DNA of 34,794 nt from Octopus sinensis. Taxonomy: Eukaryota. Made by a program: the position numbers. Shown in pieces: positions 21,301 to 34,794 of the stretch. The number at the start of each line of letters is the position of its first letter. Within the stretch, counting starts at the first letter, position 1. Location of the stretch: positions 1 to 34,794 of the forward strand of contig NW_021835385.1 of NCBI RefSeq assembly GCF_006345805.1, read 5' to 3'.

Positions 21301-24300
21301 TAGTATCAAGAAATTAAACGAACTTACAATTCTTTTAAATTCGAAAGCCCCGTGAATGTACCTTCTTTGATGGTTGCAATATTGTTGTCCGAAAGATCTC
21401 TATAGCAGTAAAGAAAGCGTGAAATAGATTATATGGAAAACATTTGTGATACGACATCAAACACTGTGACTTCAGAATGAAAGGAAGAAAAAGAAGAAGG
21501 ACGAGGAGGAGGAGGAGGAGAAGAAGAAGAACAAGAAGAAGAAGAAGAAGAAGAAGAAGACGGAATGCGGTATGCAAACTCACATCACACATATCCCACT
21601 CACCCTTGTGGAAACATGATCAGAGAGATTATTCATTTTATATCGCTTCATTGTCACAAGCATATTAGAAAACACACAGGAAATATATCTGCAGTTTAAT
21701 TGTATCAGGCCAAATATTCCAGCTTACAAGTACAGTAAGTATTTCAGGTTTACAGATAGAATGTATGTGACAATATTATTCGAATATATATTTTCCGCTT
21801 CCACTTCAGTTGCTCTATTACATAAATAACGTGAAGTGAATGACAAAATTCGAAGTTGAATGATAATATCGAAACACGAAGGAGAATATTGAATTAGGAA
21901 ATGGAGGAGGATGCAAAATATAAAATAAAGGAATAATATAGTCACATTTCACACAGAACTACACTTATATATGAACATACACATATACTTCAGCTAAAAA
22001 TATCTGATGCAAACATGTAAACTCACAAACGTTACCATTTCTAATACAGATTCATATCAAAATCATTGAAATTTGGGGAACAAAAATGAGTTATTGAGAT
22101 GTGAATTGAAACAAAGCAAATACAATAAAAGAACATTATATTTTTCCTATTATTTCACTTTCTCTCTCAAATTCTCTCTTTCTTTCACATTGTCTATCTC
22201 TCTCCGATTTTCTTTGTATCTTCCTAAATCGTGTTCATTCTTCAAATTTGAATTGATTTTGCCCGGAACAGTCTGAAAATTTATACATTTGTGAGCTTAA
22301 TATCAGCATCAATTATTACTTTCGGAAAATAGTATCAAGAAATTAAACGAACTTACAATTCTTTTAAATTCGAAAGCCCCATGAATGTACCTTCTTTGAT
22401 GGTTGCAATGTTGTTGTCCCAAAGATTTCTATAGCAGTAAAGAAAGCGTGAAATAGATTATATGGAAAACATTTGTGATACGACATCAAACACTGTGACT
22501 TCAGAATGAAAGGAAGAAAAAGAAGAAGGAGGAGGTGGAGGAGAAGAAGAAGAAGAAGAAGAAGAAGAAGAAGAAGAAGAAGAAGAAGAAGAAGAAGAAG
22601 AAGAAGAAGAAGACGGAATGCGGTATGCACACTCACATCACACATATTCCCACTCACCCTTGTGGAAATATGGTGAGAGAGATTATTTATTTCATATCGC
22701 TTCATTGTCACAAGCATATTAGAAAACACACAGGAAATATATCAGCAGTTTAATTGTATCAGGCCAAATATTCCAGCTTACAAGTACAGTAAGTATTTCA
22801 GGTTTACAGATAGAATGTATGTGACTATATTATTCGAATATATTTTCCGCTTCCACTTCAGTTGCTCTATTACATAAATACGGAAGTGAATGACAAAATT
22901 CGAAGTTGAATGATAATATCGAAACACGAAGGAGAATATTGAATTAGGAATGGAGGAGGATGCAAAATATAAAATAAAGGAATAATATAGTCACATTTCA
23001 CACAGAACTACACTTATATATGAACATACACATATACTTCAGCTAAAAATATCTGATGCAAACATGTAAACTCTCAAACGTTACCATTTCTAATACAGAT
23101 TCATATCAAAATCATTGAAATTTGGGGAACAAAAATGAGTTATTGAGATGCGAATTGAAACAAAGCAAATACAGTAAAAGAACGTTATATTTTTCCTATT
23201 ATTTCACTTTCTCTCTCAAATTCTCTCTTTCTTTCACATTGTCTCGCTCTCCCCGATTTTCTTTGTTTCTTCCTAAATCGTGTTCATTCTACAAATTTGA
23301 ATTGATTTTGCCCGGTACAGTCTGAAATTTTATACATTTGTGAGCTTAATATCAGCATCAATTATTACTTTCGGAAAATAGTATCAAGAAATTAAACGAA
23401 CTTACAATTCTTTTAAATTCGAAAGCCCCGTGAATGCACCTTCGTTGATGGTTGAAATGTCGTTCATCCAAAGATCTCTATAGCAGTAAAGAAAGTGTAA
23501 AATAGATTATATGGAAAACATTTGTGATACGACATCAAACACTGTGACTTCAGAATGAAAGGAAGAAAAAAGAAGGAGGAGGAGGAGGAGGAGGAGGAGG
23601 AGAAGAAGAAGAAGAAGAAGAAGAAGAAGAAGAAGAAGAAGAAGAAGACGGAATGCGGTATGCACACTCACATCACACATATTCCCACTCACCCTTGTGG
23701 AAATATGGTGAGAGAGATTATTTATTTCATATCGCTTCATTGTCACAAGCATATTAGAAAACACACAGGAAATATATCTGCAGTTTAATTGTATCAGGCC
23801 AAATATTCCAGCTTACAAGTACAGTAAGTATTTCAGGTTTACAGATAGAATGTATGTGACTATATTATTCGAATATATATTTTCCGCTTCCACTTCAGTT
23901 GCTCTATTACATAAATAACGTGAAGTGAATGACAAAATTCGAAGTTGAATGATAATATCGAAACACGAAGGAGAATATTGAATTAGGAAATGGAGGAGGA
24001 TGAAAAATATAAAATAAAGGAATAATATAGTCACATTTCACACAGAACTACACTTATATATGAACATACACATATACTTCAGCTAAAAATATCTGATGCA
24101 AACATGTAAACTCACAAACGTTATTATTTCTAATACAAATTCATATCAAAATCATTGAAATTTGGGGAACAAAAATGAGTTATTGAGATGCGAATTGAAA
24201 CAAAGCAACTACAATAAAGGAACATTATATTTTTCCTATTATTTCACTTTCTCTCTCAAATTCTCTCTCTTTCTTTCACATTGTCTCGCTCTCTCCGATT

Positions 24301-32564: not shown

Positions 32565-34794
32565 GAAGAAGAAGAACGTAGAAGAAGAAGAAAGAAGAAG
32601 AAGAAGAAGTAGAAGAAGAAGAAGAAAGTAGAATAAGAAGAAAAACAACAAGAAGATGAAGGAGGGGAAGAAGAAATTGGAGAATATGAAGAAAAAGAAG
32701 GAGGAGAATTGGGGAGGAGGTGGAGGAGGTGGAGGAGGAGGGTGGGGAGTTTAGGAGGAGGACAAAGGAAGGAATGACTGAGGAGGGGCACCTGGGGGTA
32801 GCAGCTGAAGTACATGAAGAGCAGGAGAATTAAATAAGAGAAAGAATCGGCAGAGAATGGAAAAGAGGGAGACCAGTGACGAAGCAGAAAGTACAGAGAA
32901 GTAAAAGAAGAAAAAGAAGAAGAGAAGAAGAAGATGAGAAGAAGAAGAAGAAGAAGAAGAAGAGAAGAAGAAGAAAAAGAAGAAGAAGAAGAAAAGAAGA
33001 AGAAGAAGAAGAAGAAGAAAAGACAAATTATTAAATAATGGAATAATATAGTCACATCTCACACAGAACTACACTTAGATATTGATATACTCACATACTT
33101 CAGCTAAAAATATTTGATGCAAACATGTAAACTCTCAAACGTTGCCATTTCTAATACAAATTCAAATAAAAATCATTGAAATTTGAGGCTCAAATATGAG
33201 TTATGGTGACTGGAATTGAAACAAAGCAACTGCAATAAAGAAACATTAAATTTTTCCTATTATTTCACATTCTCTCTCAATTTCTCCCTCTTTCTCACTT
33301 TGTGACTCGCTTTCTTACTCCCTCTTTTTATCTTCTTAAGACGTGTTCATTTTACAAATTTAATTGGTCTTGTTTAGAGTGCAATCTGAAAGATTATTGG
33401 GTAATGAGTGTTATATCAGCATCAATTATCACTTTCAAAAATAGTAACAGGAAACTGAACGAACTCACAATATCGTCAAATTCGAAAGCAATCGAGAATA
33501 CACCTCTGTGATGGTTGCAATGTTGTTCGAATGCAGATTTCTATAGCAGTAAAGAAAGAATAATGCAGATTATATGGAAAATATTTGTGATACGACATGA
33601 AACAAGGTGGTTTTAGAACGAAAGGAAGAAAAAGAAGAGAGATAACGAAGAAGAAGAAGAAGGAGGAGGAGGAGAAGAAGAAGAAGAAGAAGAAGAAGAA
33701 GAAGAAGAAGAAAGTAGAAGAAGAAAAAAAAGAGAAAAGAAGAAGAAGAAGAAGGAGAGAAAGAAGAAGAAGAAGAAGGAGGGGAAGAAGAAGAAGAAGA
33801 AGAAGAAGAAGAAGAGAAAGGAGTAGCAGAAGAAGAAGGTATAGAAGAAGAAAAAGAAGAAAATGACGAAGAAGTAGAAGAAGAAAAAGAAGAAGAGTTA
33901 GACGGCGTAGAAGATGAAGATTAGAACAAGAAGAAGCAGAAGAAGTAGAAGAAGAAGAAGAAGAAGAAGAAGAAGAAGAAGACGTTGAAGAAGAAGTAGA
34001 AGAAGGCGACGAAGAAGAAGAAAAAGAAAAAGGGAGGAGGGGAGAAGTGGAGGAGGAGGAGAAGTGATGATGGGGAGAGATGGGAGGAGAAGGAAGAGAG
34101 GTGGGGAGGAGGAGGAGGAGAGAGTATGAGAGAGTAGGGGCAGGACCTGGAGGAGCAGGAGAAGTAGGTCAATGAGAATAAATAAATGAAGTACAAAAAA
34201 GTGAACAAAAAGAAAGTATGGGAATGATTTATGAAAGAGAAGAAGAAAAAGAAAAAGAAGAAGAAGACGAAGAAGTGGACGAGGAGGAGTAGAATTAGAA
34301 GAAAAAAAGGAAGAAGAAGAAGTAGAAGGAGAAGAAGAAGAAGAAGAAAAGAAGAAGAAGAAGAAGAGGAAGAATGAGATGAGAAGAAGAAGAAAAAGAA
34401 GAAGAGGAAAAAGAAGTTGAAGAAGAAGAAAAGAAGAAGATGTAGAAGAAGAAGAAGAAGAAAGGAGGAGAAGAAGAAGAAGAAGCAGAAGAAGACGAGG
34501 AAGAAGAAGGAGAAGAACAAAAACTACAACAACAATAACAAAAATTTTATTTCGGTGGAAGTGTGGATAAATAACCACACGGCACCACAGAATCAAGAGA
34601 ACAATGTGTAACAAAATAGTAGCTAAAACTTATATTAATAGTGCAGATACATACATACATATGAACATACACATATATATTTTCAGGAATAACATTTTTA
34701 TGCAGACAATTATCAATTGACAGTCATTGACATGTTCAGACTCAATCAAATAAATATAACACGAATATGAGAACTGAATATGGTTTACGTAATA

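What the first reader, a model, noticed from the sequence alone, without database searches (positions are those of the whole stretch)
21328..33540. Apparent satellite is a tandem array of one-LRR-per-exon cassettes in a receptor-like gene
Seen: each repeat unit hides an AG...GT exon on the minus strand encoding one 24-aa LRR (10 copies, A-J; nine are 72 nt and G is 71 nt). All share the same acceptor and donor phase (2/2), so any subset of the 72-nt exons can be included, skipped, duplicated or deleted without a frameshift, and they splice in frame to an LRR-CT exon. Established: modular LRR cassettes underlie diversified recognition in lamprey VLRs and in exon-shuffled LRR-ROCO genes of brown algae. 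Inference: this is a cephalopod variable-LRR receptor system that diversifies by exon copy-number change, conversion or combinatorial splicing. Repeat masking would hide it from annotation.
Basis: partly seen in the sequence, partly recalled or inferred. Interest (0 to 1): 0.92.

Follow-up and report, generated by a model that had tools for sequence, protein, structure and literature searches.

The report
Tandem array of single-LRR exons
What looks like satellite DNA is a row of ten small exons, each coding one leucine-rich repeat of a cell-surface-type receptor gene; most of the exons have changed faster than the introns around them, but nothing here shows that they are mixed and matched.

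Summary
The minus strand carries ten AG...GT exons. Nine are 72 nt and G is 71 nt. All ten start with A and end with TT, so every junction is phase 2 and rebuilds a TTA Leu codon. Single exons match Pfam LRR_8 and solved extracellular LRR proteins. A four-cysteine, cap-like exon follows in the same phase at 14022..13865.

Nine exons sit in one duplicated exon-plus-intron unit. Exon H sits in an unrelated unit.

In 21 of 21 pairs of undisturbed exons, the exon is less alike than its intron flanks. The differences sit at the x positions of LxxLxLxxN, and the scaffold residues never vary. In the three youngest units, 10 of 11 variable exon sites change the residue.

G is frameshifted to a stop. 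J differs from F only by two compensating 1-nt indels.

My reading is a real, fast-evolving LRR ectodomain gene that grew by tandem exon duplication. One LRR per symmetric exon is already known from Slit, NLR and brown-algal ROCO genes. Combinatorial splicing, immune function and cephalopod origin were not testable here.

The parts
33469..33540 (-). LRR exon J, type 2 unit, 72 nt, donor GTGAGT. It is identical to F except for one 1-nt deletion and one 1-nt insertion, which reread five codons.
32312..32383 (-). LRR exon I, type 1 unit, 72 nt, donor GTAAGT.
   Evidence: mis-set its acceptor at an internal TAG
30782..30853 (-). LRR exon H, 72 nt, in a unit whose introns are unrelated to the other nine; same phase and motif.
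29427..29497 (-). LRR exon G, type 2 unit, 71 nt. A 1-nt deletion shifts the frame to a TGA inside the exon, so it is a pseudo-exon or must be skipped.
27564..27635 (-). LRR exon F, type 2 unit, 72 nt, donor GTGAGT.
26271..26342 (-). LRR exon E, type 1 unit, 72 nt.
24448..24519 (-). LRR exon D, type 1 unit, 72 nt.
23406..23477 (-). LRR exon C, type 1 unit, 72 nt.
22357..22428 (-). LRR exon B, type 1 unit, 72 nt.
21328..21399 (-). LRR exon A, type 1 unit, 72 nt; last LRR exon before the cap exon.
13865..14022 (-). Cap-like (LRR-CT-like) exon. It has a phase-2 acceptor, a half LRR followed by C-x-C and two further Cys, and a GTAAGT donor in phase 1. If the donor is read through, a stop follows two codons later.
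   Evidence: No Pfam, PDB or Foldseek support. Atlas gave leads only.
18087..18110 (-). Relic of a further LRR exon in the intron between A and the cap exon. It resembles the first half of exons C and D, but has a stop after 17 residues and the wrong phase behind its AG.
   Evidence: (E 0.0068)
8853..8944 (-). Possible next exon: first part of a Cys-rich three-finger (Ly6/uPAR-like) domain with 4 Cys. The acceptor ctgtag|AT fits the phase-1 donor of the cap exon. Membership in the same gene is inferred, not shown.
   Evidence: no Pfam hit
6719..6902 (-). Possible following exon: rest of the three-finger-like domain with 8 Cys, ending in a CC-x4-CN motif. Acceptor is phase 0 and donor is phase 1.
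   Evidence: UPAR_LY6_2 E 0.24, below cut-off; Atlas leads
34513..34788 (.). A 98% identical copy of 30409-30684, the intron just downstream of exon H. It predicts another H-type exon just beyond the window end, so the array continues upstream of the window.
   Evidence: family D18
20327..34517 (.). Intronic (GAA)n on the plus strand, which is (TTC)n in the transcript sense. There is one tract per intron, and its length accounts for most of the intron length differences (957-1791 nt).

Best explanation
The region is the 3' part of the LRR domain of one protein-coding gene on the minus strand. The gene encodes an extracellular-type ('typical' 24-residue) LRR protein. A unit made of one 72-nt phase-2/2 exon plus about 1 kb of intron was amplified in tandem. 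This most likely happened by unequal crossing-over, helped by the unit homology and the long (TTC)n tract in every intron. It produced two subfamilies, type 1 (A-E, I) and type 2 (F, G, J), interleaved with an older, unrelated H-type unit. After duplication, most exons diverged faster than their introns, and the differences lie at the residues that line the concave, ligand-facing strand. The likely causes are positive selection for new surface residues, plus some gene conversion that keeps the introns alike. The array then splices to a four-Cys cap exon, and possibly on to a three-finger-like domain. Shown here: the exons, their phase, their LRR identity, the duplication structure, and the excess of exon over intron divergence. 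Inferred: transcription, the selection, the role of the microsatellite, and the link to the three-finger exons. I take the diversification to be germline and evolutionary, within one ordinary gene, not a somatic or combinatorial system.
For: LRR identity of single exons: Pfam LRR_8 in 4 of 4 tested. In PDB, exon A's best match is IGFALS (3.7e-15), followed by LRRC4C, LRRC15, TLR3 and LGR4. Exon H's best match is the Nogo receptor (8.7e-10), followed by Slit2, LGR4, decorin and biglycan. Nine copies share a 292-nt core at spacings of 1029-2886 nt (D7). Exon identity is lower than flank identity in 21 of 21 pairs of the seven undisturbed homologous exons, for example A-I flanks 96% and exon 82%. 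Parsimony gives 52 steps on 72 exon sites against 74 on 234 flank sites, Poisson P 1e-7. In the three colinear youngest units, 11 of 72 exon columns vary against 47 of 952 intron columns, Fisher P 0.0015. Only 15 of 842 intron windows reach the exon value, and the one 72-column intron bin above the exon value lies in the microsatellite. In those units, 10 variable sites change the residue and 1 is silent: 10 of about 55 nonsynonymous sites against 47 of 952 intron columns, P 6e-4, or P 0.008 if the triple change in one codon counts once. The silent sites give 1 of about 14, no different from the intron. The scaffold positions L, N, I, I, F, L, L are invariant in 7 of 7 exons. All six x positions of LxxLxLxxNx carry 3-5 different residues. 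An HMM built from the exon peptides finds no further copy on either strand except one relic.
Against: No transcript evidence could be consulted. Whole-exon pN/pS is near 1: it exceeds 1 in 14 of 21 pairs and is below 1 in 7, including 5 of the 6 pairs that involve exon I. Silent and third positions are also more diverged than introns in the older pairs: 15 steps against 7.6 expected, P 0.011, and A-I has pS 0.33 against 4% flank divergence. Selection on residues alone does not explain that; it points to intron homogenisation or exon-limited conversion. The pair J-F goes the other way, with 0 substitutions in 71 aligned exon bases against 4% in the flanks. G is frameshifted, and J lacks the conserved Phe. 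The first sliding-window test, with four units, failed: 232 of 622 windows that do not overlap the exon were at least as divergent. The cause was that D's upstream intron is not colinear. The samples are small (23 codons; 3 to 7 copies), and the copies are related, so the pair counts are not independent. The cap exon has no database support beyond its motif.
Confidence: 0.65

Rival explanations
1. This is a variable-LRR receptor system whose repertoire is produced by including, skipping or reordering the cassette exons in different cells, or by differences in exon number between individuals, and it serves immune recognition.
For: All ten exons have the same phase and nine have the same length, so any subset keeps the frame. 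G can only be tolerated if it is skipped. Every exon is preceded by a long pyrimidine (TTC)n tract, and such tracts could in principle bind splicing repressors (the binding is an inference from recall). Exon-focused diversification sits at ligand-facing positions. Brown-algal ROCO genes with the same 72-nt exon design show shuffling and positive selection (PMC3341825, passages) and, by its title and abstract, alternative splicing (PMC11378527, search listing).
Against: There is no expression, population or tissue data. The same design occurs in genes with few isoforms (Slit, NLR). The splice sites of the nine homologous exons are almost identical, so nothing marks any of them as optional. No reversed or scattered cassettes exist on the plus strand or outside the array, apart from one relic. 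My searches for such a system in cephalopods found none: the listings, and the passages of a 2026 review.
Confidence: 0.1
2. This is an ordinary LRR adhesion or guidance protein in which concerted evolution (gene conversion or unequal exchange) keeps the introns alike. Purifying selection protects the distinct residues of each repeat, so the exons are old islands of divergence and there is no positive selection.
For: Silent sites in the older pairs are far more diverged than the flanks. Exon C shares a block of bases with D while its flanks group with A, B and I, which suggests a mosaic. Islands of divergence under gene conversion are described in the literature (PMC3728101, abstract only).
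Against: In the youngest units A, B and C the silent-site variability (1 of about 14) equals the intron level, while residue-changing sites are 3-4 times higher. That fits change after duplication better than old divergence. Conversion tracts would have to stop at both exon borders in unit after unit.
Confidence: 0.2
3. This is a decaying or never-expressed array: a satellite that happened to carry an LRR exon and is amplified as junk, or the dead part of a pseudogene.
For: G is frameshifted to a stop, J has a rewritten five-codon stretch, and a relic exon lies at 18.1 kb. The introns are swamped by microsatellite. The LRR-NT, signal peptide and 3' end are not in the window.
Against: Eight of ten exons are open with all scaffold residues intact, and 10 of 10 keep both splice sites. 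The differences are not spread evenly but avoid the scaffold codons. The second indel in J restores the frame after 14 nt.
Confidence: 0.08
4. This is an assembly artefact: one or a few units were wrongly expanded, or two haplotypes were laid in tandem.
For: Units A to C are 95-99% alike and about 1 kb long, a size that assemblers handle badly.
Against: The differences between copies are patterned: they change residues and sit at x positions. The units differ in microsatellite length, and three unit types are interleaved.
Confidence: 0.04

Closest known systems
Ectocarpus LRR-ROCO genes (type I LRR exons; PMC3341825, passages read)
   Same: Each LRR is one 72-nt, 24-residue exon of symmetric phase. 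Exons are duplicated within the LRR domain. Inactivated LRR exons lie among the active ones. Excess change sits at the ligand-facing residues.
   Different: Those proteins are cytoplasmic, with ROC-COR GTPase domains and no Cys caps. Here the repeats are of the extracellular type and are followed by a four-Cys cap-like exon. The register of the repeat within the exon differs. No reversed cassettes were found here, whereas the paper reports many on the non-coding strand.
Animal genes with modular LRR exons: Slit, NLR (PMC6642158, passages); LGR and glycoprotein-hormone receptors (recalled, no call)
   Same: One repeat per small symmetric exon, so exons can be skipped in frame. The repeats are extracellular 24-residue LRRs with caps. 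Single exons here hit Slit2, LGR4 and LGR5 in PDB.
   Different: No EGF, laminin-G or 7TM exon was seen downstream in the window. The intron flanks here are 91-99% alike within the type 1 subfamily and 96-98% within type 2, which marks recent amplification, not an old, fixed exon set. Orthology could not be tested.
Lamprey variable lymphocyte receptors
   Same: Recognition by a variable number of 24-residue LRR modules capped by an LRR-CT. Single exons and the cap exon give weak VLR matches.
   Different: VLR cassettes are spliceless fragments that are copied somatically into an incomplete gene (PMC13428168, passages). Here the modules are ordered exons with canonical splice sites on one strand.
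Ly6/uPAR and TGF-beta-receptor-type three-finger domains
   Same: The two exons at 8944..8853 and 6902..6719 carry 12 Cys, with a closing CC-x4-CN motif, split over two exons. Atlas leads point to SLURP1, a cobra cytotoxin and TGF-beta receptor II.
   Different: The only Pfam match is far below the cut-off (E 0.24), and there is no PDB match. I know of no LRR protein with such a C-terminal domain; this is recall, not searched.

Membership tests
Extracellular 'typical' LRR proteins with Cys caps | Repeats of about 24 residues with LxxLxLxxNxL and a conserved Phe | tested here: met
   Pfam LRR_8 in 4 of 4 single exons tested. PDB matches to IGFALS, LRRC4C, TLR3, LGR4/5, NgR and Slit2. Scaffold invariant in 7 of 7 exons.
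Extracellular 'typical' LRR proteins with Cys caps | C-terminal cap (LRR-CT) with four Cys after a half repeat | tested here: inconclusive
   The motif and phase fit. Pfam gave 0 families, PDB gave one chance hit at E 1.1, and Foldseek gave nothing below E 2.4 on a model with pLDDT 71.6. Atlas scores of 0.76-0.80 are leads only.
Extracellular 'typical' LRR proteins with Cys caps | Signal peptide and N-terminal cap | not testable with these tools
   The 5' part of the gene lies beyond the window end. A copy of the H-unit intron at 34513-34788 shows that the array continues.
Lamprey VLR-type somatic assembly | Germline cassettes without splice sites, in both orientations, flanking an incomplete gene | tested here: not met
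   10 of 10 modules have AG and GTRAGT and lie on one strand in order. No plus-strand copy was found.
Lamprey VLR-type somatic assembly | Somatic rearrangement in immune cells | not testable with these tools
   Needs DNA from different tissues.
Exon-shuffled LRR genes of the Ectocarpus ROCO kind | One LRR per 72-nt symmetric exon, with duplicated and inactivated exons in the array | tested here: met
   compared with the passages of PMC3341825.
Exon-shuffled LRR genes of the Ectocarpus ROCO kind | ROC-COR GTPase domains in the same protein | tested here: not met
   Downstream of the array the window holds a Cys cap-like exon and Cys-rich exons, and no long open frame. Only the window could be examined.
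Exon-shuffled LRR genes of the Ectocarpus ROCO kind | Excess residue-changing substitutions at concave-face positions | tested here: inconclusive
   The result is positive against the intron rate in units A-C (P 6e-4, or 0.008 counted conservatively). Whole-exon pN/pS is about 1. No codon-model test was run.
Slit / LGR | EGF, laminin-G and cystine-knot domains (Slit) or a 7TM domain (LGR) after the LRR domain | tested here: inconclusive
   None was seen among open frames of 50 residues or more in 1-20300 or in the Cys-motif scan. I ran no dedicated search, and the gene may continue beyond base 1.
Ly6/uPAR three-finger domain | 8-12 Cys in the LU pattern with a closing CCxxxxCN | tested here: inconclusive
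   The motif is visible. UPAR_LY6_2 has E 0.24 at 12 bits against a cut-off of 31.5. The Atlas score of 0.78 is a lead only. The fold model was too poor to search, at pLDDT 49.5.

The most novel reading that the evidence does not exclude
The array is the variable part of a lineage-specific surface receptor: LRRs, a cap, then a three-finger domain. Its binding face would be diversified on purpose. Unequal exchange, promoted by the (TTC)n tracts, would change exon number between individuals. Exon-limited conversion and positive selection would renew the ligand-facing residues. Regulated skipping, obligatory for exon G, would give several receptor lengths from one gene. That would be an animal counterpart of the brown-algal exon-shuffled LRR receptors.
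Probability: 0.1. Interest if true: 0.85.

Novelty: new variant of a known kind. Interest (0 to 1): 0.45.

Why it matters
Repeat masking would indeed hide these exons, because each one sits in a roughly 1-kb tandem unit full of (GAA)n. Gene catalogues of repeat-rich genomes may therefore undercount such LRR genes. Exons that are 3-4 times more diverged than their own introns, with the changes on the ligand-facing strand, are a compact and testable sign of a fast-evolving recognition surface. If the pattern holds in related species and the exons are expressed, the locus would be a good place to study how new binding specificities arise by exon duplication in an animal. If instead it yields one invariant isoform, it is simply a young internal expansion of an ordinary LRR protein.

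Tried and rejected
The cap exon was searched alone. Pfam gave 0 families. PDB phmmer gave one chance hit to a ribosomal protein at E 1.1. A single-sequence AlphaFold model had pLDDT 71.6, and Foldseek against PDB gave 85 matches, none below E 2.4 and none an LRR protein. Its cap identity therefore rests on motif, phase and position only.

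The second three-finger-like exon was also searched alone. PDB gave nothing. The model had pLDDT 49.5 and was too poor to search.

Both Atlas calls scored below 0.9, so they are leads only.

A four-unit sliding-window test was rejected because D's upstream intron is not colinear. I replaced it with the three colinear units.

The gapless exon identities for G and J are distorted by their indels.

A crude screen for a signal-peptide exon between the cap exon and the first three-finger exon gave 5 candidates, all from one TG/CA microsatellite frame, and I rejected them. A crude screen for a hydrophobic terminal exon below 6718 gave nothing. The 3' end of the gene is unknown.

Rfam at gathering thresholds gave 0 matches, and ARAGORN found 0 tRNAs.

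Eight open frames in the surroundings were scanned in Pfam. One gave a weak RVT_1 match (E 0.017, below cut-off), and the rest gave nothing useful.

Literature: a search for 72-bp Slit exons found nothing relevant. The LGR papers I opened did not state the exon design, so that point is recalled.

Not done or not possible:
- Genome contigs and the phage, plasmid and E. coli collections hold no animal DNA, and I did not use them.
- Orthologues, other copies in the same genome, the taxon and expression therefore all stayed unchecked.
- Supplements were closed. The supplementary tables of PMC3341825 (positively selected sites, inactivated exons) may bear on the comparison.

Full report
WHAT IS THERE

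The plus strand between about 20.3 and 34.5 kb is dominated by imperfect (GAA)n tracts. Between these tracts lies a repeated core. A 292-nt family has nine copies, at start-to-start spacings of 1029, 1049, 1042, 1823, 1293, 1862, 2886 and 1157 nt (family D7).

Reading the minus strand, and then extracting every copy, shows that each core holds a short exon. Nine of them follow the acceptor ...ctttctttactgct(a/t)tag. All end before a donor, which is gtaagt in 7 of 10 and gtgagt in 3 of 10.

A tenth exon, H (30853..30782), lies in a unit whose introns do not align with the others. It still has the same length, phase and motif.

- Nine exons are 72 nt. G is 71 nt and then meets TGA in the LRR frame.
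- All ten begin with A and end with TT. Every intron is therefore phase 2, and every junction rebuilds TTA, which is the fourth Leu of LxxLxLxxN.
Its letters run from A at 21.3 kb to J at 33.5 kb.

ARE THEY LRR EXONS?

Searched one exon at a time, four of four exons (A, H, F, E) match Pfam LRR_8 at E 6.4e-5 to 8.7e-3.

- Exon A alone hits 162 distinct PDB chains at E up to 10. The best is the IGF-binding acid-labile subunit (3.7e-15), followed by LRRC4C, LRRC15, TLR3, LGR4, LRIG1, LINGO-1, FLRT, VLRs and Slit2.
- Exon H alone hits 103 chains, led by the Nogo receptor, Slit2, LGR4/5, decorin and biglycan.

These are all extracellular proteins with 'typical' 24-residue LRRs. No particular family stands out.

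An HMM built from the separate exon peptides finds the ten exons and nothing else on either strand, with one exception. A relic at 18110..18087 (E 0.0068) has a stop and the wrong phase.

THE CAP EXON

At 14022..13865 an exon with acceptor ...tattacag|T continues the phase (TT|T gives Phe). It encodes a half repeat, then C-x-C, and two more Cys, and it ends at a gtaagt donor in phase 1. If that donor is not used, a stop follows two codons later.

This fits an LRR-CT cap by motif and position. No database supported it:

- Pfam found none and PDB found none.
- The single-sequence model (pLDDT 71.6) has a helix behind the C-x-C, but Foldseek gave nothing below E 2.4.
- The Atlas gave only leads (0.76-0.80) to Slit3 and VLR-B fragment clusters.

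DOWNSTREAM

Two further minus-strand exons, at 8944..8853 and 6902..6719, have compatible phases. They carry 12 Cys with a closing CC-x4-CN, which is the look of a Ly6/uPAR or TGF-beta-receptor-type three-finger domain.

Support is weak: UPAR_LY6_2 at E 0.24, and Atlas leads at 0.78 to SLURP1, a cobra-type cytotoxin and TGF-beta receptor II clusters.

A crude screen found no credible signal-peptide exon between the cap and these exons. This mildly favours one gene, but it remains an inference. No terminal hydrophobic exon was found below 6718.

HISTORY OF THE ARRAY

The nine homologous units fall into two types: type 1 (A, B, C, D, E, I; donor gtaagt) and type 2 (F, G, J; donor gtgagt).

- Flanks (80 nt upstream plus 200 nt downstream) are 91-99% alike within type 1, 96-98% within type 2, and 76-82% between types.
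- A 98% copy of the intron below H sits at the very end of the window (D18). Another H-type exon should therefore lie just outside, and a higher-order repeat of about 4.1 kb (H-type unit, type 2, type 1) is visible.
- Intron lengths are 957-1791 nt. They differ mainly in their (TTC)n tract, and the introns from J to D are 70-79% pyrimidine.

EXONS AGAINST INTRONS

Among the seven undisturbed homologous exons (A, B, C, D, E, I, F), the exon is less alike than its flanks in 21 of 21 pairs.

- On a tree built from the flanks, the exon needs 52 steps on 72 sites against 74 on 234 flank sites (Poisson P 1e-7).
- The seven scaffold positions never vary.
- The six x positions of LxxLxLxxNx carry 3-5 different residues each, and so does the residue before the conserved Phe.

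In the three youngest, fully colinear units (intron plus exon of A, B, C):

- 47 of 952 intron columns vary, against 11 of 72 exon columns (P 0.0015).
- Only 15 of 842 intron windows reach the exon's divergence, and the one 72-column intron bin above the exon value lies in the microsatellite.
- Ten of the eleven variable exon sites change the residue. That is 10 of about 55 sites against the intron rate, P 6e-4, or P 0.008 if the three changes in one codon count once.
- The silent class, at 1 of about 14, is at the intron level.

This is what positive selection after duplication looks like.

RESULTS THAT DO NOT FIT SO NEATLY

- Whole-exon pN/pS is about 1. It exceeds 1 in 14 of 21 pairs and is below 1 in 7.
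- In older pairs the silent sites are also far more diverged than the flanks (A-I: pS 0.33 against 4%; third positions 15 steps against 7.6 expected, P 0.011). This points to homogenisation of the introns or to conversion limited to the exons.
- Exon C shares a block with D although its flanks group with A, B and I.
- J equals F at all 71 aligned bases and differs only by two 1-nt indels 14 nt apart, while their flanks differ by 4%.
- My first four-unit window test was invalid.
- The numbers are small, and the copies are related.

WHAT IT MOST LIKELY IS

This is a real gene for an extracellular LRR protein whose LRR domain has recently grown by tandem duplication of an exon-intron unit. The new repeats are being remodelled at the ligand-facing residues. 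I put this at about 0.65.

G is a fresh pseudo-exon, or must be skipped. J's second indel restores the frame, which suggests that the frame matters.

COMPARISON WITH WHAT IS KNOWN

One LRR per small symmetric exon, with the option of in-frame skipping, is established in several systems:

- Human NLR and Slit genes (PMC6642158, passages).
- A plant LRR receptor kinase exon of 72 bp that is skipped (PMC12780178, passages).
- Most similarly, Ectocarpus ROCO genes, where each LRR is one 72-nt exon, exons are shuffled, inactivated exons lie in introns, and positive selection acts on the concave face (PMC3341825, passages). A 2024 follow-up on alternative splicing was seen only in the listing.
- The LGR and glycoprotein-hormone receptor design, which I recall but could not confirm in the papers I opened.

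The lamprey VLR analogy fails on anatomy.

I found no description of such an array in cephalopods in two searches or in the passages of a 2026 review. These searches cover open-access text only.

VERDICT

I rate it a new variant of a known kind, with interest 0.45.

All protein searches were exon by exon.

Noticed in passing
window 18087-18110 (minus): A decayed copy of the first half of an LRR exon, with bases like those of exons C and D. It sits behind a good acceptor, but in the wrong phase and with a stop after 17 residues. It suggests the array once reached further towards the cap exon.
   Followed up: partly
window 6719-6902 and 8853-8944 (minus): Two phase-compatible exons with 12 Cys and a closing CC-x4-CN motif, which resembles a Ly6/uPAR or TGF-beta-receptor-type three-finger domain. 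If they belong to the LRR gene, the domain combination is unusual.
   Followed up: partly
window 34513-34788 versus 30409-30684: A 276-nt direct repeat, 98% identical, 4104 nt apart. It shows a higher-order period in the array, and that the array runs off the window.
   Followed up: partly
window about 2790-2850 (plus) and 3715-3775 (minus): The same translated stretch appears on opposite strands, and the TRF consensus units at 2791-2838 and 3725-3772 are reverse complements. This is an inverted repeat embedded in TA/TG microsatellite. Related frames at 449-811 and 4482-4721 are direct copies.
   Followed up: no
window 10290-10571 (minus), also 9984-10759: Open frames with a weak reverse-transcriptase match (RVT_1 E 0.017, below cut-off). 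This is probably a retroelement fragment in the intron between the cap exon and the three-finger-like exon.
   Followed up: partly
window 33469-33540 (exon J): J is base-for-base identical to F except for one deleted and one inserted base 14 nt apart, while the surrounding introns differ by 4%. This may be frame rescue, a single complex event, or a read error pair.
   Followed up: partly
window 15334-15534: A run of (ATG)n followed by (GAG)n, about 200 nt, open in several frames as homopolymeric Asp, His, Met or Ile. It is a plain microsatellite in the long intron.
   Followed up: no
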